Positions 3,144-15,828 of a DNA stretch of 16,323 nucleotides are shown here, in pieces. The translations under genes and the position numbers were made by a program. The notes below the pieces were generated by a model. That model did no database searches and was not told where the DNA came from. It was given only the letters and a program-made list of their open reading frames with translations. This stretch comes from a virus (Duplodnaviria; Heunggongvirae; Uroviricota; Caudoviricetes). Each line of letters starts with the position of its first letter. Within the stretch, counting starts at the first letter, position 1. The stretch spans positions 64,001 to 80,323 of the IMG/VR virus record IMGVR_UViG_3300033121_000168; one strand, written 5' to 3'.

Positions 3144-3490
3144 TGTCCAAAGTAAAATATATTCTAATAGCCAAAGCTTATGACCGAAAAGGAAGACTTC
3201 TTTCTATAGGTCATAATCAATACAATAAATCTCATCCTTTGCAGAAAGCTTATGCTGAACGAGTTAATCTTGAATGCAAGGACAAGCTTCATGCTGAAAT
3301 TCAATGTTTGGTTAGATGTGGTGACAAACCTATATATCGATTAACTGTTGAAAGATATCTAAAAGATTCAAGTATGGCAATGGCTAAACCTTGTCTTATT
3401 TGTCAAGAAGCTATTAAAGATTTTGGAGTTAAGATTGTTGAGTATACGACATCTCAAGGTTGGGTAAAGGAAATGAACAATGGCAAATAA
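3143..3490 (+). CDS. Cytidine/deoxycytidylate deaminase-like zinc protein
   Basis: HAE and PCLIC zinc-deaminase motifs; TAATG coupling. Confidence 0.85.
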   Translation: MSKVKYILIAKAYDRKGRLLSIGHNQYNKSHPLQKAYAERVNLECKDKLHAEIQCLVRCGDKPIYRLTVERYLKDSSMAMAKPCLICQEAIKDFGVKIVEYTTSQGWVKEMNNGK

Positions 3491-3923
3491 GGAATCCTTA
3501 GATTTAGTTTATATGCAGACTGCTTTATTGCATGCTGGATTATCATATGCTAAACGTACTAAAGTTGGTGCTTGTTTAGTTACTCGCACTGGAATCATTG
3601 TCCCTGGAGTAAATGGTCTTCCAAAAGAACTTGGAAATGAACTTGAGTTTCAAGAATATAATTTCAATTCTAGGGATATAGTATATATAACAAAACCAGA
3701 AGTAGTGCATGCTGAACAAGCTTGTTTGAATAAAAGTGCAAGAGAAGGTGTAGCAGTAGAAGGTAGCACCCTTTACACAACTCTTTCGCCATGTGCTCAA
3801 TGTGCAAGTAACATGATCTGGCTTAAGGTTCAAAGAGTTGTCTTCTTACAACAGTATAGAGATGTAAGAGGTCTTGACTTGTTGAAGCAAGCTGGTATCA
3901 TAGTGTCTAAGTTGGAAGTTTAA
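3480..3923 (+). CDS. cd: dCMP deaminase
   Basis: KVGACLV, GVNG, VVHAEQ, LYTTLSPCAQCA, VVFLQQY motifs of the dCMP deaminase/ComEB family. Confidence 0.9.
   Translation: MANKESLDLVYMQTALLHAGLSYAKRTKVGACLVTRTGIIVPGVNGLPKELGNELEFQEYNFNSRDIVYITKPEVVHAEQACLNKSAREGVAVEGSTLYTTLSPCAQCASNMIWLKVQRVVFLQQYRDVRGLDLLKQAGIIVSKLEV
3874..3901 (+). promoter_or_regulatory. Candidate sigma70 promoter in last codons of dCMP deaminase
   Basis: TTGACT, 16 bp, TATCAT. Confidence 0.45.
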
Positions 3924-4039: not shown

Positions 4040-4246
4040 ATGAAACGAATTGGTCAAGTTGAATTTAGTCGCCATAAGGTTATCCTAATGGAATATGAAC
4101 GAGGTTGGGGTTCTAAAGTTGATGAAGTAATTTATTTTGAGAATGAATTCTATGCAAAGACTTTTGTCAGGGATTTCAACTCAGAAAATGATAAAGATTC
4201 AGTTCCAGATTGGTATATGACTGCAGAATATCAATTTATTGGTTAA
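4040..4246 (+). CDS. Small conserved-looking phage protein
   Basis: 68-aa ORF; EYERGWGSK and PDWY motifs. Confidence 0.75.
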   Translation: MKRIGQVEFSRHKVILMEYERGWGSKVDEVIYFENEFYAKTFVRDFNSENDKDSVPDWYMTAEYQFIG

Positions 4247-4260
4247 TAGAAAGAAATAAC

Positions 4261-4830
4261 ATGAAAAGATATTTCACATCAGACTTACATTTCTTTCACA
4301 AGAACATTTGTAAGTTTACTGATCGTAAATTGGTTACTTCTCAAGAAGATCATGAACAATGGCTATTTGACATTTGGAATTCGCAAATAGAGAATGAAGA
4401 CCTTGTTTACATTCTTGGTGATATTTCATTTGGTAAATATGATCAGACTAAATGGCTTTTGGCTAGACTCAAAGGTCAAAAGATTGTAATCAAAGGTAAT
4501 CATGATAATGAACAACATTTGAATCGTCTTAAGCACGAAGGTATTATTCTTAGTTGGAAACTTTATGATGAAGTTGAAATCCAAGGTACCAAAGCTTGTT
4601 TGATGCATTATCCCATTGCTTCTTGGAATCGCCAGCATTACGGTAGTTATATGCTGCATGGTCATAGTCATGGAATGTATCAAGGATCTGGAAAAATTCT
4701 TGACGTTGGGATTGATTCGTCTTACAATGTGTTTGGAGAGCATAAGCTTTTCAGTGAAAACGATATTGTAGCTTTCATGCAACAGAAAGAAATTTACATT
4801 GCAGACTCACATAGAAAAGAAGTACAATAG
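4261..4830 (+). CDS. Calcineurin-like metallophosphoesterase
   Basis: Complete motif set SDLHFFH, LGD, GNHD, HYP, HGHSH, DVGID; ATG at 4261. Confidence 0.92.
   Translation: MKRYFTSDLHFFHKNICKFTDRKLVTSQEDHEQWLFDIWNSQIENEDLVYILGDISFGKYDQTKWLLARLKGQKIVIKGNHDNEQHLNRLKHEGIILSWKLYDEVEIQGTKACLMHYPIASWNRQHYGSYMLHGHSHGMYQGSGKILDVGIDSSYNVFGEHKLFSENDIVAFMQQKEIYIADSHRKEVQ
4799..4828 (+). promoter_or_regulatory. Candidate sigma70 promoter
   Basis: TTGCAG, 18 bp, TACAAT, then 5 nt and CATC as at the other promoters; weak -35. Confidence 0.4.
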
Positions 4831-5547: not shown

Positions 5548-5752
5548 ATTTAAAGAAGATTTTGAAGAGTTGGTTAGTGAAGAAGTTGATGGTTACGATA
5601 TCCGAAGGAGTCTAATTGATTATAAATTGCATAGTGTTTTTGCTGTAAACTATATGAATCAAATTTTGTATCCTGTAGTAATTGATGTAGACTTTGATTC
5701 TGCAGTAAATTATCAGGCTGCTTATATTAGTGAATTGCTAAAAGGATATTAA
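5540..5752 (+). CDS. Small acidic hypothetical protein
   Basis: AAGGA RBS, ATG 5540. Confidence 0.7.
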   Translation: MTEFKEDFEELVSEEVDGYDIRRSLIDYKLHSVFAVNYMNQILYPVVIDVDFDSAVNYQAAYISELLKGY

Positions 5753-5925
5753 TGTCTAATTATTATGTTTTCTCGGATGAAGCTGGTGGTTTTCAAAAGA
5801 CTCGTAAACCTAAACGATATGATTGGGATGAGAAACCAGTTAAAGATAAGAAAAAGAAAAAGGATTATACTTATCAACGTAAATCAAAACGTGGTGAACT
5901 TCTAGATCAAACTGATACTTATTGA
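5752..5925 (+). CDS. 57-aa basic hypothetical protein
   Basis: TAATG coupling, AAAGGA RBS; K/R-rich; fills gap not shown in ORF track. Confidence 0.65.
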   Translation: MSNYYVFSDEAGGFQKTRKPKRYDWDEKPVKDKKKKKDYTYQRKSKRGELLDQTDTY

Positions 5926-6330: not shown

Positions 6331-6768
6331 GTGAAAAGAGTCCAAGCTGAATATCCATTTGATGATTATTGGTTGTATGTTATTTTCCATAAGAAAGAAG
6401 GAAGATTTCAGGCCAATTTAATTTTAAAATCTGATTCCAAAGTTAGGACTACTCTTTCTTATGCTCGATATAAGATGTCAGTACATTTGGGTAGATTCCT
6501 GTCTCAAAATGAGCATGTGGATCATATCGACAATGATAAAACTAATGATAACATATCCAACCTACAAATTCTTTCTCCAGAAGAGAATAAACAAAAAGCA
6601 GAAAAGTTTTATCGTTTAAATAATAAAATGACACTGGAGTTGACTTGTCCTATTTGTAATTCAATCTTTCAATATCCGATTAAAAATTATAAATTCCATA
6701 TAAAGAATGGGAGAAAGAATTTTTATTGTTCTAGACCTTGCGTATGGGAAAGTTTAAAGTCTCTGTAG
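6331..6768 (+). CDS. HNH homing endonuclease with C-terminal zinc finger
   Basis: HVDHIDNDKTNDNISNLQIL; CPIC...CSRPC; GAGGTGA RBS, GTG start. Confidence 0.9.
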   Translation: MKRVQAEYPFDDYWLYVIFHKKEGRFQANLILKSDSKVRTTLSYARYKMSVHLGRFLSQNEHVDHIDNDKTNDNISNLQILSPEENKQKAEKFYRLNNKMTLELTCPICNSIFQYPIKNYKFHIKNGRKNFYCSRPCVWESLKSL

Positions 6769-6849
6769 TTTAATGGTAAAACAGCGGATTTATACCCCGT
6801 AGCGCCAGATAAGCGGCTGATCAGAGTTCGATTCTCTGTGGAGACACCA
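6759..6849 (+). tRNA. tRNA-Ile(UAU) with 21-nt variable region, encoded CCA
   Basis: Acceptor GTCTCTG/TGGAGAC, D stem GTTT/AAAC, anticodon stem GCGGA/CCCGT with loop TTTATAC (TAT at 6791-6793), T arm CAGAG-TTCGATT-CTCTG, A73-CCA. Confidence 0.85.
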
Positions 6850-7184: not shown

Positions 7185-7259
7185 GGGTCTGTCGTATAAT
7201 GGACAATACAGGAGATTTCTACTCTCTAAATCCGGGTTCGATTCCTGGCAGACCCTCCA
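7185..7259 (+). tRNA. tRNA-Arg(UCU), encoded CCA
   Basis: Acceptor GGGTCTG/CAGACCC, A20 in D loop, anticodon stem GGAGA/TCTCT with TCT at 7218-7220, TTCGATT loop, U73-CCA. Confidence 0.92.
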
Positions 7260-7789: not shown

Positions 7790-7997
7790 ATGAAAGAAAT
7801 TCACATGGTAATCACAAATGGTGGTGATGGTTCTAATTCTATTCATTGGGTACAGGCTCAGGAAGTTCTTGATCGAATGGAAGAATTGGTAGATGAAGGT
7901 GATGAAACATGGGATTAGAAGTGGTTGGTTTATTTGGCCTATTGACTTTGATCCTGTGTGGGTTGAAAAATGCACTGGTTTTGTAAATAATGAATAA
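7790..7997 (+). pseudogene. Out-of-frame junction of two gene fragments
   Basis: 42-aa ORF 7790-7918 with good RBS; +1 frame 7905-7997 reads KHGIRSGWFIWPIDFDPVWVEKCTGFVNNE with no start codon and a TGA directly upstream. Confidence 0.55.
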
Positions 7998-8010
7998 AGG
8001 AAATAATAAT

Positions 8011-9012
8011 ATGGAAAAGTACGCATCTATTGAACAATTCAAGAACGTTATCAAGCATGTGCGCGATAACTCCAACTATCATCAAGTTCCTCTGCCAACA
8101 TTGGAATTCATTGGTACTGTCAAGTTGCATGGTACAAATGCTTCTATTGTGTTTAATCCTGATATGAGTCATGTATTTCAATCTCGTGAACGAGAAATTA
8201 GTATTGAATCAGATAATGCTGGATTTGCAATGTGGGGTGAACGCAACATTAAGGATCTAGGTCTTACAATTACAAATCTTTCTAGTACCAGTAAACATTT
8301 CGAGTATGATACTCCAACTAAAATTGTAGTATTTGGTGAATGGTGTGGAGGTTCTATTCAAAAAGGTGTTGCCTTGAATCAACCCCCTAAGATGTTTGTG
8401 ATTTTTAATATTACTTTGATTTGGGAAAATGATATTCGAACAGAACTGACTCCTGAACAAATTCAATCTGTTGTACATCGTACCGAAGAAATCCGTTGCA
8501 TCTATGACTACCCGACATGGAAAATTTCGATTGACTTCAATGATCCGGCTGCTGTGCAAAACCAACTTGTAGATTTGACAATTGCTGTTGAAGAAGAATG
8601 TCCAGTTGGTAAAGCACATGGAGTTTCTGGAATTGGTGAAGGTATTGTTTGGTGGAATGTTGAACGAAATCTGAAATTCAAGGTCAAGGGTGAAAAGCAT
8701 TCTGCTTCCAAGGTGAAGACACTAAAGGAAATCGCTGCTGTCGATATTGAGAAGCTGAATTCTATCAAGGAATTAGTTACTTCTGCTGTATCTGAAAATC
8801 GACTCAAGCAAGGTCTGGATAAGATGAAAGAAATGGGTTTGGACATTGATGTAACAAATACAGGAGCATATATCAAGTGGGTTGTGGGTGATGTGATGAA
8901 GGAAGAAAAAGATGTTATCATTGCATCTGGTTTTAATGTCAAGGAAATCATGCCTCATGTATCTGAAGCAGCTAAGAAGTTCTGGTTTGAAACATTGTCT
9001 AATTTGAATTAA
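8011..9012 (+). CDS. RNA ligase, Rnl2 family
   Basis: Nucleotidyltransferase motifs KLHGTN (I), QSR (Ia), FGEW (III), FVIF (IIIa), EGIV (IV), FKVK (V); C-terminal NRL and DVMKEE. Confidence 0.9.
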   Translation: MEKYASIEQFKNVIKHVRDNSNYHQVPLPTLEFIGTVKLHGTNASIVFNPDMSHVFQSREREISIESDNAGFAMWGERNIKDLGLTITNLSSTSKHFEYDTPTKIVVFGEWCGGSIQKGVALNQPPKMFVIFNITLIWENDIRTELTPEQIQSVVHRTEEIRCIYDYPTWKISIDFNDPAAVQNQLVDLTIAVEEECPVGKAHGVSGIGEGIVWWNVERNLKFKVKGEKHSASKVKTLKEIAAVDIEKLNSIKELVTSAVSENRLKQGLDKMKEMGLDIDVTNTGAYIKWVVGDVMKEEKDVIIASGFNVKEIMPHVSEAAKKFWFETLSNLN

Positions 9013-10036: not shown

Positions 10037-10147
10037 ATGAAGAAGATTTTGATTGTACTTGCTGTAGGTCTATTGATTTCAGCATGTAATTGTGATGACC
10101 AAGCAAACCAGAAAACTCATTACGTTTTTAAACATGACTCGCATTAA
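10037..10147 (+). CDS. 36-aa mini-lipoprotein or truncated lipoprotein
   Basis: AAAGGAG RBS; MKKILIVLAVGLLISAC lipobox; not in ORF track. Confidence 0.6.
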   Translation: MKKILIVLAVGLLISACNCDDQANQKTHYVFKHDSH

Positions 10148-10562
10148 TCTAGTTGATCCTTCTGAACTTTGTGATAAGCATCTCATGGCTGAATACAGAG
10201 AACTTATTCGTATTCCGAATGCTGTGTATTCTGGTAAGATGAAAACATGTTACAAAGATACTCCAAGTATCTATACACTTGGTACTGGTCATGTTAAATT
10301 CTTTGTTGATAAGATGTTGTGGCTTTATGAACGACACCAAATTCTTTACTCTGAACTTTTGTTTAGAGAATTTAAAGTAACTGAAATTGTTTGGCCTTTT
10401 GAAATGCTACAATTTCTCAAAGAACGATTATTGTTTAATGAATACATTCCAACTAAATCTGAAATTGAACTAAATATTTCAAGAATTCTTGATAGAATGC
10501 CAGAAAATCCTAAGTTTACACATAGAACTGCACCACTATATTATGAAGGTAATTACCGTTAA
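10134..10562 (+). CDS. denV: Pyrimidine-dimer DNA glycosylase (T4 endonuclease V homolog)
   Basis: MTRINL start with catalytic Thr2, HLMAEYREL, LGTGHVKFF. Confidence 0.93.
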   Translation: MTRINLVDPSELCDKHLMAEYRELIRIPNAVYSGKMKTCYKDTPSIYTLGTGHVKFFVDKMLWLYERHQILYSELLFREFKVTEIVWPFEMLQFLKERLLFNEYIPTKSEIELNISRILDRMPENPKFTHRTAPLYYEGNYR

Positions 10563-11233: not shown

Positions 11234-13306
11234 ATGTCTAATTTTAAGGTTTTTGCGAAGCAAGTTAATTCTCGTCTGACTGCACTTCAGAAGAATGAAA
11301 TGTATGTTACTGATGTAAATACTGACGAACTGTGGTCTGTATATCTGTCTGCTTTCCCCGCAGATAGTGATCCTATTTACAAGACAAATACTACACATAC
11401 TTGTTCTTGCTGCCGGAATTTCGTAAAGAATCTTGGTGCTGCTGTTGCAATTATTGATGGTAAGATTCAAACAGTTTGGGATAACTTTGAAAATCTTCCA
11501 TATCCTTACAATATTGTGTCTGAGGCTATGTCTGATTATTTGAAGACAAAGAAGGTTGTTTCTTTGTATCGTTCTTCTGAACTTCAATATGGTGCAGAAG
11601 TTACTCGTCAGCAGATTGAAGATGGTTCTTTTATCAATTGGAATCACTTCTATGGTAAGGTTGATTCTAAGCACTTTACAAAGGCTCCAGATGCTGATCG
11701 TGGCCAATTCAACACTAGTCTTGATGTGTTCATCCGTGGTCTGAATGAAATTACTCTTGAAGCATTGGATACTGTTCTTGATTTGATTCAGTCCAATAAT
11801 TTGTATCGTGGTCAGGAATTCAAGACTAAGGTTAGTAGCTTCCGTAATATCAAAGTGAAGTACGATAAGATTAAGTTTGAGTCCGAAAAGCGAATCTTTG
11901 CAATTACCAGCATGCATCAAAATATCTCGCACTTCAAGAATGAAGTAATTGGTACTTTGGTATATGATCTGTCTACTGGTGTTGATATTGAAACTGCAGT
12001 TAAGATGTTTGAATCTAAGGTTGCTCCTGCAAACTATAAGCGTCCAACTGCTTTGATTACACCTAAGATGGTAGAATCTGCAATGGAGACAATCAAGGAA
12101 TTGGATCTTCAAGATGCATTGCAACGTCGATTTGCTGTCATTGAAGATGTGTCAGTGAATAATGTTCTGTGGGTGGACAATGAAACCAAGTCCAAGATGA
12201 AGGGTGGCATTGAAGACCTTTTGATGGGTTCTGTCAAGAAAACTAAGGTCAAGGAAGATACAGCAGTTGAAATGTCTATTGATGAGTTTGTGAAGGATAT
12301 TCTGCCTAAGGCTAGTTCTATTGAATTGCTTGTAAAGAATTCTCATGCTACTAATTTTGTCAGTTTGACTGCACCAGTTCATTCTGATGTTGCACATCTG
12401 TTCAAGTGGAATAATGATTTTGCTTGGTCTTATAATGGTAATATTGCTGATTCAGAATTGCGTAAGGCTGTTCAATCCCGTGGTGGTCGTGTAGACGGTG
12501 TATTCCGTTTCTCACACCAATGGAATTATGATAAGCGTAATACCAGTCTGATGGATTTGCATGTGTTCATGCCTGGAAATGGAACTAAGGCTGAAAATGG
12601 AGTACATGACAGCTATGGTAATGGTGAACGTGTAGGCTGGAACAATCGTAAACATAATAAGTCTGGTGGTGTTCAAGATGTTGACTATACATCTGCTGCC
12701 CCTGTTGGATATGTTCCTGTTGAGAATATTACATTCCCTGATATCAGTAGCATGCCAGAAGGTAAGTATGTGTGTAAGATTCATAATTGGGCTTTCCGTT
12801 CTCCAACAGAAGGTGGTTTTAAGGCTGAAATTGAATTTGAAGGTAATGTATTTGAATATGAATACACAAAGCCTTTGAAGAATAAGGAATGGGTGACTGT
12901 AGCTGTAGTTACATTGAAGGATGGAAAGTTCTCAATTGAACACCATCTGCCTCATTCTGCAAGCAGTCAAAAGATTTGGGGAATCGAAACCGAATCTTTG
13001 GTCAAGGTCAATACTATCATGAATAGTCCAAACTATTGGGATGATAATGCTGTTGGCAATAAGCACTGGTTCTTTATTCTGGAAGGTTGTGTAAATCCAG
13101 AAGAAACTCGTGGTATCTATAATGAATTTTTGCGAAGTGATCTTGAAGTTCATCGAAAGGTATTTGAAATTCTTGGTAATAAGACAAAGTGCCCTGTTGC
13201 AGAAAAGCAACTTTCTGGACTTGGTTTCTCTTCTACTCAAAAGAACTCTTGTACTTTTGTGGTGAAGGGTGATAAGATCCGTAAGACAGTCACAGTTAAC
13301 TTTTAA
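11234..13306 (+). CDS. 690-aa conserved phage protein of unknown function with internal YfaP/DUF2135-like module
   Basis: AAAGGA RBS; HTCSCC, NNLYRG, FKWNNDFAWSY, SPNYW, GNKHWFF, QLSGLGFSST; internal DLHV..P, GGVQDVD, PVENI, GKY pattern. Confidence 0.85.
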   Translation: MSNFKVFAKQVNSRLTALQKNEMYVTDVNTDELWSVYLSAFPADSDPIYKTNTTHTCSCCRNFVKNLGAAVAIIDGKIQTVWDNFENLPYPYNIVSEAMSDYLKTKKVVSLYRSSELQYGAEVTRQQIEDGSFINWNHFYGKVDSKHFTKAPDADRGQFNTSLDVFIRGLNEITLEALDTVLDLIQSNNLYRGQEFKTKVSSFRNIKVKYDKIKFESEKRIFAITSMHQNISHFKNEVIGTLVYDLSTGVDIETAVKMFESKVAPANYKRPTALITPKMVESAMETIKELDLQDALQRRFAVIEDVSVNNVLWVDNETKSKMKGGIEDLLMGSVKKTKVKEDTAVEMSIDEFVKDILPKASSIELLVKNSHATNFVSLTAPVHSDVAHLFKWNNDFAWSYNGNIADSELRKAVQSRGGRVDGVFRFSHQWNYDKRNTSLMDLHVFMPGNGTKAENGVHDSYGNGERVGWNNRKHNKSGGVQDVDYTSAAPVGYVPVENITFPDISSMPEGKYVCKIHNWAFRSPTEGGFKAEIEFEGNVFEYEYTKPLKNKEWVTVAVVTLKDGKFSIEHHLPHSASSQKIWGIETESLVKVNTIMNSPNYWDDNAVGNKHWFFILEGCVNPEETRGIYNEFLRSDLEVHRKVFEILGNKTKCPVAEKQLSGLGFSSTQKNSCTFVVKGDKIRKTVTVNF

Positions 13307-13803: not shown

Positions 13804-14331
13804 ATGTTTCAAGCCATTTCTAACCTTCGCAATGAAGTTCGTATCCTGAAGATCCTGAAGCAAATTGGATCTGAAGTAAACAAGCACGTTGATAGTGTTA
13901 ATTTTGGTGGATGTTGTGTGTATGCATCAACTCTTGGCAAGATGCTTGAATCTCTTGGTTTTGAGGTTAGAATCCTTTCTGTAGACCGGAAGAATACAAA
14001 TGAAAAGATTCCTAATGATGAAAAGATCTTGTGCCCTCAAGAAGCTGAAGAAAAGCTTGGTGTAAACTTTCATCATATTGGTATTGCAGTGAAGGTGAAT
14101 GGTCGTTGGTATTCTCATGATACGGATCGAACCTTCCGTGGTCTTAAAAAGTTTGGTGCATCAGAATATCGTGCATCGAAAACATATCTTACAGTCAATC
14201 AGGCTTTGCATTTTGCCTCAAAGTCAGGTTTCTGGAATTCAACTTATGACCGAATTACTGGAAATCCTCTTGTTGAAGAAATTGTTCAAAAATATCTTCA
14301 ACCGTTGCAACAAAACAACATTCAAGCTTAA
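13804..14331 (+). CDS. Transglutaminase-like (Cys-His-Asp) protein
   Basis: GGCCVYASTLGKMLESLGFEVR and HHIGIAVKVNGRWYSHD fit the G-x-C...H...W...D pattern. Confidence 0.65.
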   Translation: MFQAISNLRNEVRILKILKQIGSEVNKHVDSVNFGGCCVYASTLGKMLESLGFEVRILSVDRKNTNEKIPNDEKILCPQEAEEKLGVNFHHIGIAVKVNGRWYSHDTDRTFRGLKKFGASEYRASKTYLTVNQALHFASKSGFWNSTYDRITGNPLVEEIVQKYLQPLQQNNIQA

Positions 14332-14374
14332 AAATTGAAGTATAATTCTTTTATCGTAATTAAGGAGTTATTTT

Positions 14375-14881
14375 ATGCGACTGGACTATACTGCAGTAGA
14401 TTGGGGGAGCATATTTGAAATAGAATATAATCCGTTCAAATTGAAATTTAAAGATGGAGTTAAATCAACTAAATTTGATAGTTCATCTGGTTATTTAAGG
14501 TATAAATATAAATCAAAAAGATATCTAGTACATAGGATTGTGTTTTTGTTGAAAAATGGTAGACTTTCAAGTGATTCGATCATTGACCACATTGACGGCA
14601 ACTCTCTAAATAATGACCCTGAAAACCTGAGAGAAGTTGATAACATATTGAATATGAGAAATTCAAAGTTGTCATCTAAAAATAAGACAGGAAAGTGCGG
14701 GGTTTACAAACAAACAACAAAAGGGTTTACTTATTTTGTTGTACAATGGAATAGTACGAAAAGATTCAGAAAACTTTTCAGATATGACAGTTGTAATGAG
14801 CAAGAGGTCTTTAATACAGCTTGCTCTTTTCGTGATGAGATAATTAAAACTCTCGGATACACAGAAAGGCATGGTAAATAA
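14375..14881 (+). CDS. HNH homing endonuclease with AP2-like C-terminal region
   Basis: VHRIVF, IIDHIDGNSLNNDPENLR, NKTGKCGVY. Confidence 0.92.
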   Translation: MRLDYTAVDWGSIFEIEYNPFKLKFKDGVKSTKFDSSSGYLRYKYKSKRYLVHRIVFLLKNGRLSSDSIIDHIDGNSLNNDPENLREVDNILNMRNSKLSSKNKTGKCGVYKQTTKGFTYFVVQWNSTKRFRKLFRYDSCNEQEVFNTACSFRDEIIKTLGYTERHGK

Positions 14882-15828
14882 TGACACACAACTTAACTTC
14901 TCGTAAAAACGGCTTCATTGAATTTGCTTTCACAGGTTTACGCAATAGCATTTGGCACCGACTCGGAAATAATTTGTCAGAGGATGCACCTATTGAACAA
15001 TGGGTTAAGGAGGCCGGTATGGACTGGCAGATTTATGAAAGTACCATGCGATATCAAACTCCAGATGGAATTACTGCAGATCCAAGTCGAAAGGTTTTGT
15101 ATCGTTCTGATGGATATGATGTTTTGGGTGTAGTTTCTGATGAATATCATGTAGTGCAGCCTAAAGAAGTTCTTGAATTCTTCCGTGAATTTACTGAACT
15201 GAATAAAATGAAACTCTCAGCAGCAGGTACTTTGTTTGGTGGTAAGCGTTTCTGGGCTATTGCTGAACTGGATAAGTTTGCTGAAATTGTTCCAGGCGAT
15301 AATATCAAAGGTCATTTGTTGCTGGTAACTTCTGCAGATGGTACTCTTAGTACTCAAGCAAAGTTCACAAGTACTCGTGTTGTTTGTAATAATACTCTGG
15401 CAGTAGCTTTGAATGAAAAAGGTAAGGTTGTGCGTAAGACACATGCTAGTGAGTTTGATGCTCGTGAATTCAAGGTTGATTTGGGTTTGATTGATTCAGG
15501 TTGGTCTAATTTCATTGAAAATCTGAAGAAGCTTGCTGAACAAAAAGTAACTGATGATTTTGCTAAGGAATTTTTTGCAAAGTTGACAGCACCAAAAGGT
15601 AAGACTACAATTGGTCAAGAACGAAATATTGACGCATTGATGCACTTCTACAGCAAGGGTGCAGGTTCTGAAATGCATTATGGTACTAAGTGGGGTTTGC
15701 TGAATGCTGTGACAGAAATGCAAACTCATGGTACATTCCGAACTGCTCGTGATCGTCAATTCGATAAGTCAGAATTCGGTGAAGGTGACAAGTTGAAGAC
15801 TAAGGCTTATCACGAACTTGTTGCTTAA
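14881..15828 (+). CDS. DUF932 family phage/plasmid protein (TIGR03299-like)
   Basis: WHRLG, GMDW, LGVVSDEYHVVQP, AGTLFGGKRFW, STRVVCNNTL, GTKWGLLNAVTE. Confidence 0.9.
   Translation: MTHNLTSRKNGFIEFAFTGLRNSIWHRLGNNLSEDAPIEQWVKEAGMDWQIYESTMRYQTPDGITADPSRKVLYRSDGYDVLGVVSDEYHVVQPKEVLEFFREFTELNKMKLSAAGTLFGGKRFWAIAELDKFAEIVPGDNIKGHLLLVTSADGTLSTQAKFTSTRVVCNNTLAVALNEKGKVVRKTHASEFDAREFKVDLGLIDSGWSNFIENLKKLAEQKVTDDFAKEFFAKLTAPKGKTTIGQERNIDALMHFYSKGAGSEMHYGTKWGLLNAVTEMQTHGTFRTARDRQFDKSEFGEGDKLKTKAYHELVA

What the first reader, a model, noticed from the sequence alone, without database searches (positions are those of the whole stretch)
6759..6849. tRNA with UAU anticodon and a type II-like long variable arm
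Seen: 91-nt cloverleaf, anticodon TAT, 21-nt variable region with an AGC..GCT stem, 4-bp D stem, A31-C39 mismatch, A73, U12-A23, but C38 and U4-A69. Known: most bacteria read AUA with lysidine-modified CAU tRNA (TilS) and avoid UAU because U34 can misread AUG. Long variable arms normally mark Leu, Ser, Tyr and Sec tRNAs, and bacterial LeuRS uses A73 and largely ignores the anticodon. Inference: either a TilS-independent AUA decoder, or a tRNA charged with a non-Ile amino acid, or a decoy for host nucleases. Similar UAU tRNAs may already be in databases.
Basis: partly seen in the sequence, partly recalled or inferred. Interest (0 to 1): 0.7.

Follow-up and report, generated by a model that had tools for sequence, protein, structure and literature searches.

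The report
Phage AUA tRNA with GAU arm
This phage gene is a real transfer RNA for the isoleucine codon AUA, and its "long variable arm" is a conserved second anticodon-like hairpin showing GAU, the ordinary isoleucine anticodon; the design is common in phages, I found no paper on it, and the hairpin may be how the host's charging enzyme accepts the tRNA.

Summary
ARAGORN and Rfam (55.3 bits) both call a 91-nt tRNA(UAU) at 6759-6849. It is not a class II tRNA. It has a class I body (4-bp D stem, 7-nt D loop, normal 4-nt V loop) with a 17-nt hairpin (6801-6817) inserted just after the anticodon stem.

The gene belongs to a large family. I collected 142 distinct sequences from more than 160 phage contigs, cultured Vibrio, Stenotrophomonas, Acinetobacter and Aeromonas phages, and a few bacteria. 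The hairpin stem covaries, while its 7-nt loop keeps GAU in 134 of 139 parsed members. The anticodon-arm determinants published for bacterial IleRS (G34, A38, C29-G41) sit on this second arm and are absent from the UAU arm.

Best reading: a TilS-independent AUA decoder charged with isoleucine (about 0.8). The GAU arm supplying IleRS identity is inference only (about 0.4). Leu/Ser/Tyr charging and a pseudogene are unlikely.

I found no paper on the design; GenBank labels these genes simply "tRNA-Ile". Earlier agents of this scan reached the same reading on other DNA. I reached it before reading their notes, but that is not independent evidence.

New here: plain short tRNA(UAU) genes are also common in phages, and all ten bacterial carriers tested have TilS.

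The parts
6759..6849 (+). Whole two-armed tRNA(UAU) gene, 91 nt, CCA encoded
   Evidence: ARAGORN; Rfam RF00005 55.3 bits; family alignment with covarying stems
6759..6765 (+). Acceptor stem 5' strand GUCUCUG; pairs with 6839-6845 (UGGAGAC). A73 is at 6846 and CCA at 6847-6849
   Evidence: All 7 pairs show changes on both sides in the family and 99.5% of cells are paired. A73 in 132/134
6768..6782 (+). D arm: 4-bp stem GUUU/AAAC with 7-nt loop AAUGGUA (class I type; U12-A23 kept)
   Evidence: A15 covaries with the last V-loop base (15-48: A-U 111, G-C 20)
6784..6800 (+). Arm 1, the decoding anticodon arm GCGGA-UUUAUAC-CCCGU. Anticodon UAU at 6791-6793, U33 present, A31.C39 mismatch, C38, G29-C41
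6801..6817 (+). Arm 2, a 17-nt (5-7-5) anticodon-arm-like hairpin AGCGC-CAGAUAA-GCGGC. It has three Watson-Crick pairs (6803-6805 with 6813-6815), loop 6806-6812 and GAU at 6808-6810
   Evidence: The three inner pairs are always paired, and two of them covary (A-U 68 vs G-C 63; A-U 73 vs C-G 60). C29'-G41' in 132/134. GAU in 134/139 members and in 22 of 25 distinct arm sequences
6818..6821 (+). Ordinary short variable loop UGAU (AGGUC or AGGUU in many G+C-richer relatives); its last base forms the 15-48 Levitt pair
6822..6838 (+). T arm CAGAG-UUCGAUU-CUCUG
7185..7259 (+). Neighbouring tRNA-Arg(UCU), which reads AGA; context only
   Evidence: ARAGORN; Rfam 60.2 bits
6331..6768 (+). HNH endonuclease ORF whose last 10 nt, stop codon included, overlap the 5' end of the tRNA; context only
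   Evidence: PHROG 14913 E 7e-31; Pfam HNH_3

Best explanation
The gene encodes a functional phage tRNA that reads the isoleucine codon AUA with an unmodified-C-independent, and so TilS-independent, UAU anticodon on arm 1. It folds as a five-arm cloverleaf. A class I body carries a second 5-7-5 hairpin (arm 2) between the anticodon stem and a normal short V loop. Arm 2 displays the loop and stem features of the major tRNA-Ile(GAU) anticodon arm: G34', A35', U36', A37', A38' and C29'-G41'. Its position 33' is A, not U, so it is unlikely to decode. My proposed mechanism is that host IleRS, which accepts U34 poorly, reads isoleucine identity from arm 2 together with A73 and U12-A23, while the ribosome uses arm 1. 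What is shown: the gene, the fold, the family, the conservation of GAU and the covariation. What is inferred: expression, isoleucine charging, the role of arm 2 and the geometry. My odds are about 0.8 that it is a working AUA-reading tRNA-Ile, about 0.6 that arm 2 is kept for some job tied to isoleucine identity, and about 0.4 that the partner is IleRS. The confidence value of 0.45 given with this explanation is for the whole statement, mechanism included.
For: - **Real tRNA.** Two programs call it.
- **Family size.** 142 distinct sequences (176 copies); 160 viral loci carry it, 78 of them with 12 or more tRNAs in the fetched stretch. Cultured phages carry it annotated as tRNA-Ile.
- **Fold.** The named structure gives 88.6% paired cells against 71.3% in shuffles and 37-46% when slid; 20 of 25 pairs change on both sides.
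- **Arm 2 was not fixed by the search.** The search specified only arm 1 and the T loop. Of the 29 distinct inter-stem regions it returned, all but three carry the GAU hairpin.
- **Arm 2 across the family.** Ten or more stem versions occur. Loop positions 34'-36' are G, A, U in all 20 cleanly parsed distinct arms, while 32', 33', 37' and 38' vary.
- **Tie to UAU.** A search with the arm-2 17-mer alone returned tRNAs that all have UAU: 54/54 viral (one was miscalled by ARAGORN) and 15/15 bacterial.
- **Identity elements.** The bacterial Ile set is A73, C4-G69, U12-A23, C29-G41, G/L34, A35, U36, t6A37, A38 (review PMC9976931). Arm 2 has C29'-G41' in 132/134 and A38' in 126/134. Arm 1 has G29-C41 in 133/134 and A38 in 6/134.
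- **A problem for arm 2 to solve.** E. coli IleRS does not charge tRNA-Ile(UAU) efficiently (PMC3575796).
- **Tolerance on the ribosome.** Engineered tRNAs tagged with a small hairpin aptamer can be translationally active (PMC7590224 abstract).
- **This phage.** It uses AUA (10% of Ile codons). Its only CAU tRNA looks like elongator Met (weak match).
Against: - No expression, charging or modification data exist for any family member.
- Geometry is unresolved. An arm leaving the core at position 43/44 cannot obviously reach the IleRS anticodon-binding domain unless it replaces arm 1 in stacking on the D stem.
- Arm 2 has only 3 (perhaps 4) stable pairs, and A33' departs from a true anticodon loop.
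- The two-arm cloverleaf is not the thermodynamic optimum: -18.9 against -22.4 kcal/mol here, and it equals the MFE in 1 of 134 members.
- Plain class I-length tRNA(UAU) genes without arm 2 are also common in phages (79 of 118 sampled rows), so arm 2 is not required for a phage UAU tRNA.
- The family is one lineage, so the contrast between arm 1 and arm 2 is effectively a single evolutionary observation.
- Three distinct arm-2 versions lack GAU.
- C4-G69 is kept in only 57/134.
- All 10 bacterial carriers tested have TilS, so none depends on this tRNA.
- Later checks recorded in the scan's notes priced the IleRS reading at 13-42%.
Confidence: 0.45

Rival explanations
1. It is a working AUA-reading tRNA-Ile, but arm 2 is not an IleRS handle. 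It is kept for another partner or purpose: a docking site or blocker for an anticodon-loop modification enzyme (for example the t6A machinery or a U34 modifier), a fold-stabilising element, or a device that tunes the ribosome against AUG misreading.
For: GAU and C29'-G41' are conserved, yet 33' is A and 37' is U in 6 of 20 distinct arms, which fits a true IleRS or t6A substrate loop imperfectly. Plain UAU tRNAs exist in many phages without the arm. UAU tRNA misreads AUG on E. coli ribosomes, so fidelity is a real problem (PMC3575796). Arm 1 has an unusual A31.C39 mismatch in 93/134.
Against: No known enzyme other than IleRS reads G34-A35-U36 together with A38 and C29-G41 as a set. I found no conserved complementary sequence inside the tRNA for a tertiary contact: T-loop position 59 and the V loop both vary.
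Confidence: 0.25
2. It is a class II-like tRNA charged with a non-isoleucine amino acid (Leu most likely, as in nematode nev-tRNAs), so that AUA is partly read as another residue.
For: The variable region is long, the discriminator is A73, and bacterial LeuRS ignores the anticodon (table). There are precedents: nematode V-arm tRNA(UAU) (PMC3333845) and allo-tRNAs in which UAU is a predominant anticodon (PMC5389517).
Against: The 4-bp D stem and 7-8-nt D loop are class I. The hairpin lies 5' of a normal 4-5-nt V loop, not in the class II position. Its stem has only 3 pairs. Its loop sequence is conserved, unlike class II arms, which are read by shape. A73 argues against SerRS and A35 against TyrRS. 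The acceptor branch is 7/5, not 8/4 or 9/3.
Confidence: 0.06
3. It is a decoy or spare part against host tRNA-cleaving defences. Arm 2 mimics the tRNA-Ile(GAU) anticodon loop to soak up an anticodon nuclease, or both arms can decode (AUA through arm 1, AUC/AUU through arm 2).
For: In this window the gene lies among an RNA ligase (7990-9012) and a metallophosphoesterase (4210-4830), which could form an RNA-repair pair. Arm 2 is a close copy of an Ile anticodon loop, and three distinct arm versions even have U33'.
Against: Across the family the gene sits in ordinary tRNA arrays with no constant protein neighbour. A33' in 16 of 20 distinct arms and a 3-bp stem argue against decoding by arm 2. I know of no anticodon nuclease specific for tRNA-Ile (from memory, not searched).
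Confidence: 0.07
4. It is a pseudo-tRNA or a DNA-level element (for example an integration site) with no role in translation.
For: The X. maliensis copy lies next to an integrase and a KfrA-like gene. One degenerate copy lacks the 3' acceptor strand (L060). The cloverleaf is not the MFE fold.
Against: Compensatory changes occur in every stem, the 15-48 pair covaries, and A73, CCA and the T loop are conserved. The gene lies in tRNA arrays of lytic-type large phages.
Confidence: 0.03

Closest known systems
TilS-independent tRNA-Ile(UAU) ('tRNA-Ile2 UAU' or 'tRNA-Ile3') of Mycoplasma mobile, also reported in Bifidobacterium and Neorickettsia (PMC3575796; PMC8450103)
   Same: UAU anticodon reading AUA without lysidine; A73; class I body; faces the same two problems, IleRS recognition of U34 and AUG misreading.
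   Different: Those are ordinary 4-arm tRNAs in genomes that lack TilS, and in M. mobile they depend on an adapted IleRS (Arg865) and ribosome. This one carries a second GAU-bearing arm, is carried by phages, and its bacterial carriers all have TilS.
Plain class I-length tRNA(UAU) genes of phages (seen here in IMG/VR contigs)
   Same: Phage-borne, UAU anticodon, found in tRNA arrays.
   Different: They have no second arm and 31-39 is always paired. A38 occurs in 54% and C29-G41 in 39%, against 4% and 0% in arm 1 of the two-armed family.
Bacterial class II tRNAs (Leu, Ser, Tyr, Sec)
   Same: An extra stem-loop between the anticodon arm and the T arm; overall length about 85-95 nt.
   Different: Class II arms sit after positions 44-45 with only 1-2 nt before the T stem, come with 3-bp D stems and large D loops, and vary freely in sequence. 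Here the hairpin precedes a complete V loop, the D arm is class I, and the loop sequence is conserved.
Nematode nev-tRNAs (V-arm tRNA-Ile(UAU) and Gly(CCC) that decode as leucine; PMC3333845)
   Same: UAU anticodon combined with a long extra arm.
   Different: They are eukaryotic, true class II bodies derived from tRNA-Leu, with no GAU loop reported. This gene is not a member.
(8/4) and (9/3) allo-tRNAs (PMC5389517)
   Same: Non-canonical bacterial or phage tRNAs with long arms; UAU is one of their predominant anticodons.
   Different: Allo-tRNAs have a 12-bp acceptor branch in 8/4 or 9/3 layout and serine-type features. This tRNA is 7/5 with A73.

Membership tests
tRNA (Rfam RF00005) | Score at or above the gathering threshold, with all four canonical arms | tested here: met
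   55.3 bits against 29, model positions 1-71; ARAGORN call
tRNA (Rfam RF00005) | Stems supported by compensatory changes in relatives; tertiary 15-48 pair | tested here: met
   20 of 25 pairs change on both sides; 15-48 is A-U in 111 and G-C in 20
Two-armed tRNA-Ile(UAU/GAU) family (no published name found) | UAU arm followed within 0-3 nt by a 17-nt 5-7-5 hairpin whose loop reads NNGAUNN, then a 4-5-nt V loop | tested here: met
   Window arm 2 is AGCGC-CAGAUAA-GCGGC, the commonest version (50 of 139 parsed members), followed by V loop UGAU
Two-armed tRNA-Ile(UAU/GAU) family (no published name found) | A73, U12-A23, C29'-G41' on arm 2, G29-C41 on arm 1 | tested here: met
   All are present in the window sequence; family frequencies are
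Class II tRNA (Leu/Ser/Tyr type) | Variable arm in the class II position (after 44-45, 1-2 nt before the T stem), with a 3-bp D stem and enlarged D loop | tested here: not met
   The hairpin directly follows position 43 and is followed by a 4-nt V loop; 4-bp D stem, 7-nt D loop
Class II tRNA (Leu/Ser/Tyr type) | Anticodon of Leu, Ser or Tyr | tested here: not met
   The anticodon is UAU in every family member
TilS-independent tRNA-Ile(UAU) of M. mobile type | UAU anticodon and A73 on an Ile-type body | tested here: met
TilS-independent tRNA-Ile(UAU) of M. mobile type | Replaces tRNA-Ile2(CAU) in a genome that lacks tilS | tested here: not met
All 10 bacterial carriers tested have TilS over the curated cut-off. 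The host of this phage is unknown.
TilS-independent tRNA-Ile(UAU) of M. mobile type | Charged with isoleucine; reads AUA | not testable with these tools
   Needs aminoacylation and decoding assays
allo-tRNA | 8/4 or 9/3 acceptor/T-stem layout | tested here: not met
   7-bp acceptor stem and 5-bp T stem, both covarying

The most novel reading that the evidence does not exclude
A natural tRNA splits its two jobs between two anticodon-type arms. One arm (GAU, not used for decoding) is shown to isoleucyl-tRNA synthetase as the identity signal. The other (UAU) is shown to the ribosome to read AUA. This would let a mobile gene supply an AUA decoder to any bacterium without TilS or an adapted IleRS, possibly by switching which arm stacks on the D stem.
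Probability: 0.38. Interest if true: 0.9.

Novelty: new variant of a known kind. Interest (0 to 1): 0.78.

Why it matters
AUA is the one sense codon that bacteria cannot read with a plain anticodon. The textbook solution is lysidine made by the essential enzyme TilS, and the only known exceptions rely on an adapted synthetase and ribosome.

A portable tRNA that carries its own isoleucine identity signal on a spare arm would be a third solution. It would also be the first natural case of identity and decoding placed on separate anticodon-type arms.

It would matter for tRNA identity rules, for how phages cope with host codon bias, and for engineering orthogonal or sense-codon-reassigning tRNAs. 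It is directly testable, because cultured phages (Vibrio phage Thalassa and relatives, Stenotrophomonas phage DLP6, Acinetobacter phage qsb1) carry it. Even if the mechanism is wrong, the family shows that annotation as "tRNA-Ile" hides a conserved, unexplained structural element.

Tried and rejected
- **Phage and E. coli searches.** megablast of 3 kb around the gene against GenBank phages found nothing. blastn of the two-armed tRNA from Xanthomonas maliensis (L092) against E. coli genomes found nothing.
- **Relatives through the RNA ligase.** Six loci share only that gene, carry no tRNA and show no synteny, so they say nothing about the gene's history here.
- **Thermodynamic folding.** The single sequence gives a non-cloverleaf MFE with z -0.87. 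Folding energy cannot decide the structure; the comparative data do.
Rejected in favour of CGC/GCG, which covaries.
- **Codon mimic (AUA in the arm-2 loop pairing with the anticodon).** Rejected. Loop position 37' varies between A, U and G while GAU is constant, and CAGAUUA versions would not pair.
- **Tertiary pairing of GAU with the T loop or V loop.** No conserved complement exists.
- **8/4 allo-tRNA fold.** The eighth pair is not supported in relatives.
- **Dedicated neighbouring protein.** None: neighbours differ among bacterial loci and phage arrays.
- **17-mer search in bacterial genomes.** Most matches were chance hits in coding sequence; only 15 of 120 fetched loci were tRNAs.
- **Own promoter or terminator.** None found near the gene.
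- **Literature.** Six searches, including sequence strings, found no description. The library holds only open-access papers and bioRxiv.
- **Not done.** A test of which residues align with AUA codons in homologues, because host tRNA-Ile2 would mask any effect. The TilS-less Actinomyces lead, because I had no handle on such a genome.

Full report
**1. Observation.**
ARAGORN finds two tRNA genes in the window: tRNA-Ile(tat) at 6759-6849 and tRNA-Arg(tct) at 7185-7259, both on the + strand. Rfam's tRNA model scores the first at 55.3 bits (gathering score 29, E 8.8e-10). Its alignment shows a canonical acceptor stem, D arm, anticodon arm and T arm, an A31.C39 mismatch and an 18-nt insertion in the variable region.

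**2. Setting.**
The window is the last 16.3 kb of an 80,323-bp IMG/VR virus record with 36% G+C, rated 96% complete by CheckV. The phage has 19 tRNA genes. Fifteen lie in a cluster at 13.2-15.1 kb, two at the contig start, and the Ile(UAU)/Arg(UCU) pair lies here.

Neighbouring genes are typical early or nucleotide-metabolism genes:
- dCMP deaminase at 3480-3923;
- metallophosphoesterase at 4210-4830;
- an HNH endonuclease at 6331-6768, whose stop codon lies inside the tRNA's first 10 nt;
- an RNA ligase at 7990-9012;
- a DenV-like glycosylase at 10092-10562;
- a second HNH gene at 14375-14881;
- a DUF932 gene at 14881-15828.

No promoter or terminator of its own was found near the tRNA, so it is probably cut out of a longer transcript. 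The phage uses AUA for 10% of its isoleucine codons, 6.3 per 1000 codons, on a crude ORF set. Its single CAU tRNA resembles E. coli elongator tRNA-Met, not tRNA-Ile2 (87% over 47 nt, weak). This tRNA would therefore be the phage's only AUA-specific reader.

**3. It belongs to a large family.**
- A pattern fixing the anticodon arm and T loop, with a free gap of 10-30 nt, hit 34 viral contigs. Every hit had the long gap of 26-28 nt.
- The 17-nt insert alone hit 63 viral contigs. All 54 tRNAs called over it carry UAU; one was miscalled 'tta' by ARAGORN because of a stem mismatch.
- In one-genome-per-species bacterial contigs the 17-mer hit mostly coding sequence by chance. Fifteen of 120 fetched loci were true copies, in Xanthomonas, Pseudoxanthomonas, Microbulbifer, Planctomycetota, Nitrospirales and alphaproteobacteria.
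- Cultured phages carry it, labelled only 'tRNA-Ile' or 'tRNA-Ile (tat)': Stenotrophomonas DLP6, Acinetobacter qsb1, and Vibrio henriette 12B8, Thalassa, Luma and many relatives. It is unannotated in Vibrio V6Aob and Aeromonas 1233.

Altogether I hold 176 copies and 142 distinct sequences. They usually sit in large tRNA arrays: 78 of 160 viral loci have 12 or more tRNAs in the fetched stretch. There is no constant neighbour.

**4. Structure from comparison.**
On a 58-sequence alignment (A1) the five-helix structure I named gives 88.6% standard pairs. Column shuffles give 71.3% and slid controls 37-46%. Twenty of 25 pairs change on both sides. All seven acceptor pairs covary, as do most D and T pairs. 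The tertiary 15-48 pair switches between A-U (111) and G-C (20). This is a folded, selected tRNA.

The body is class I: a 4-bp D stem and a 7-8-nt D loop. After the insert comes an ordinary 4-5-nt variable loop, such as UCAU, UGAU, AGGUU or AGGUC.

The insert is exactly 17 nt, laid out 5-7-5, and lies 0-3 nt after position 43. Its three loop-proximal pairs are always formed. Two of them covary: 30'-40' is A-U in 68 and G-C in 63, and 31'-39' is A-U in 73 and C-G in 60. The third is almost always C-G (132 of 134). The outer two positions are usually mismatched (G.G in 120), although DLP6 has a perfect 5-bp stem. In most members G28' could pair with position 43' if G42' bulges out, which would give four pairs. 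That is my reading and I did not test it.

**5. The loop of the second arm.**
The 7-nt loop is CAGAUAA in 121 of 139 parsed sequences. The other loops that keep GAU are CAGAUUA, CUGAUAA, UAGAUAA, CUGAUAU, UAGAUGG, CGGAUUA and UAGAUUG. Two more sequences that my parser mis-registered also read CAGAUUA. Among 25 distinct arm sequences, 22 show GAU at loop positions 3-5 and three do not (UGGACUG, UAGGGGC, UAUUGAA). In the 20 cleanly parsed arms G, A and U are invariant, while the flanking loop positions vary.

CUGAUAA and UUGAUAA are the anticodon loops of the ordinary tRNA-Ile(GAU) genes in these same phage arrays. The 'long variable arm' is therefore an anticodon-arm look-alike that displays the major isoleucine anticodon. 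Its position 33' is usually A, where every decoding tRNA has U.

**6. Where the isoleucine identity elements sit.**
The published bacterial set is A73, C4-G69, U12-A23, C29-G41, G or lysidine 34, A35, U36, t6A37 and A38 (review PMC9976931). In the family:

| Element | Where it is found |
|---|---|
| A73 | 132/134 |
| U12-A23 | every listed D arm |
| C4-G69 | 57/134 |
| G34 | arm 2 only |
| A38 | arm 2: 126/134; arm 1: 6/134 |
| C29-G41 | arm 2: 132/134; arm 1: 0/134 (G29-C41 in 133) |
| 31-39 | arm 1: A.C mismatch in 93/134 |

Taniguchi et al. showed that E. coli IleRS charges tRNA-Ile(UAU) poorly and that M. mobile needs an adapted IleRS (PMC3575796). The simplest reading is a division of labour: arm 2 tells IleRS 'isoleucine' and arm 1 reads AUA. 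This is inference. I reached it, before opening the scan's notes.

**7. Cautions found here.**
- Plain, class I-length tRNA(UAU) genes are also common in phage contigs. They made up 79 of 118 sampled rows (70 parsed sequences). In these, A38 occurs in 54%, C29-G41 in 39% and 31-39 is always paired.
- The two-armed family is a single lineage, so the arm 1 / arm 2 contrast is one evolutionary observation.
- All ten bacterial carriers I tested have TilS above the curated cut-off. Only 4 of 58 Microbulbifer species carry the gene. The X. maliensis copy lies beside an integrase and a KfrA-like gene. In these bacteria the gene is an accessory, probably mobile, and not a TilS replacement.
- The geometry by which IleRS could reach arm 2 is unknown, and the five-arm fold is not the computed energy minimum.

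**8. Rivals.**
Class II-style mischarging is unlikely. The body is class I, the arm is in the wrong place and too short, its sequence rather than its shape is conserved, and A73 and A35 argue against Ser and Tyr. A nuclease decoy or a second decoding arm cannot be excluded. The nearby RNA ligase and phosphoesterase hint at RNA repair in this phage, but the family has no such constant context, and A33' argues against decoding by arm 2. A pseudogene is excluded by the covariation.

**9. Known or new.**
Six literature searches, including the arm's sequence as a text string, found no description. Reviews of non-canonical tRNAs list allo-tRNAs and selenocysteine tRNA but nothing like this. The library covers only open-access papers and bioRxiv.

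The scan's notebook shows that other agents found this design repeatedly on other DNA and read it the same way. Later checks there kept the observation (85-93%) but priced the synthetase reading at 13-42%. Those notes are not independent evidence. They made me state the mechanism at about 0.4 and no higher. Their claim that TilS-less Actinomyces rely on this tRNA would be strong support, but I could not test it.

**10. Verdict.**
The gene is a typical member of an apparently undescribed, widespread family of two-armed tRNA-Ile(UAU) genes. I rate it a new variant of a known kind, of high interest and directly testable with cultured phages.

Noticed in passing
Same phage, outside the window: genome 14008-14093 (L305:1009-1094) and 14318-14401 (L305:1319-1402): Two more class I-isotype tRNAs are over-long. 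Asn(GUU) is 86 nt with a 14-nt variable region and a 3-bp D stem. Thr(UGU) is 84 nt with a small hairpin GAA-GAAA-UUC in the variable region. Rfam confirms both at 54.1 and 52.5 bits. Thr(UGU) genes of 86-87 nt also occur in L251, L263 and L275. Neither arm shows an anticodon mimic. The phage has no tRNA-Tyr.
   Followed up: partly
window 6331-6768: The HNH endonuclease ORF ends 10 nt inside the tRNA, so its stop codon TAG lies at tRNA positions 8-10. RNase P cleavage at the tRNA 5' end would remove the stop codon from the HNH message. A second HNH gene lies at 14375-14881.
   Followed up: no
window 4210-4830 and 7990-9012: A metallophosphoesterase and an RNA ligase (Pfam PF09414, PHROG 548) flank the two tRNA genes. 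They could form an RNA-repair pair against tRNA-cleaving defences. The ligase is the only gene shared with loci L002-L007.
   Followed up: partly
L312-L429 (IMG/VR contigs): Ordinary 72-78-nt tRNA(UAU) genes are frequent and diverse in phage contigs: 79 of 118 sampled pattern hits, 71 distinct. Lysidine-independent AUA readers seem common in phages generally.
   Followed up: partly
L061 (IMGVR_UViG_3300029058_000001): A 96-nt tRNA-Gln(UUG) with a 25-nt variable region lies in the same locus as a two-armed tRNA-Ile.
   Followed up: no
L060, reverse strand, about 5690-5790: A degenerate copy of the two-armed tRNA keeps the 5' half and arm 2 but lacks a matching 3' acceptor strand. ARAGORN does not call it. 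It may be a remnant at an integration site.
   Followed up: no
L092 (Xanthomonas maliensis) 366-2636; L088, L307-L309 (Microbulbifer): Bacterial copies are patchy, in 4 of 58 Microbulbifer species. In X. maliensis the copy lies next to a tyrosine integrase and a KfrA-like gene, which points to carriage on mobile elements.
   Followed up: partly
window 3480-3923, 10092-10562, 14881-15828: dCMP deaminase, a DenV-like pyrimidine-dimer glycosylase and a DUF932 protein. The 690-aa protein at 11234-13306 (PHROG 1735, function unknown) has homologues in 559 GenBank phage records.
   Followed up: no
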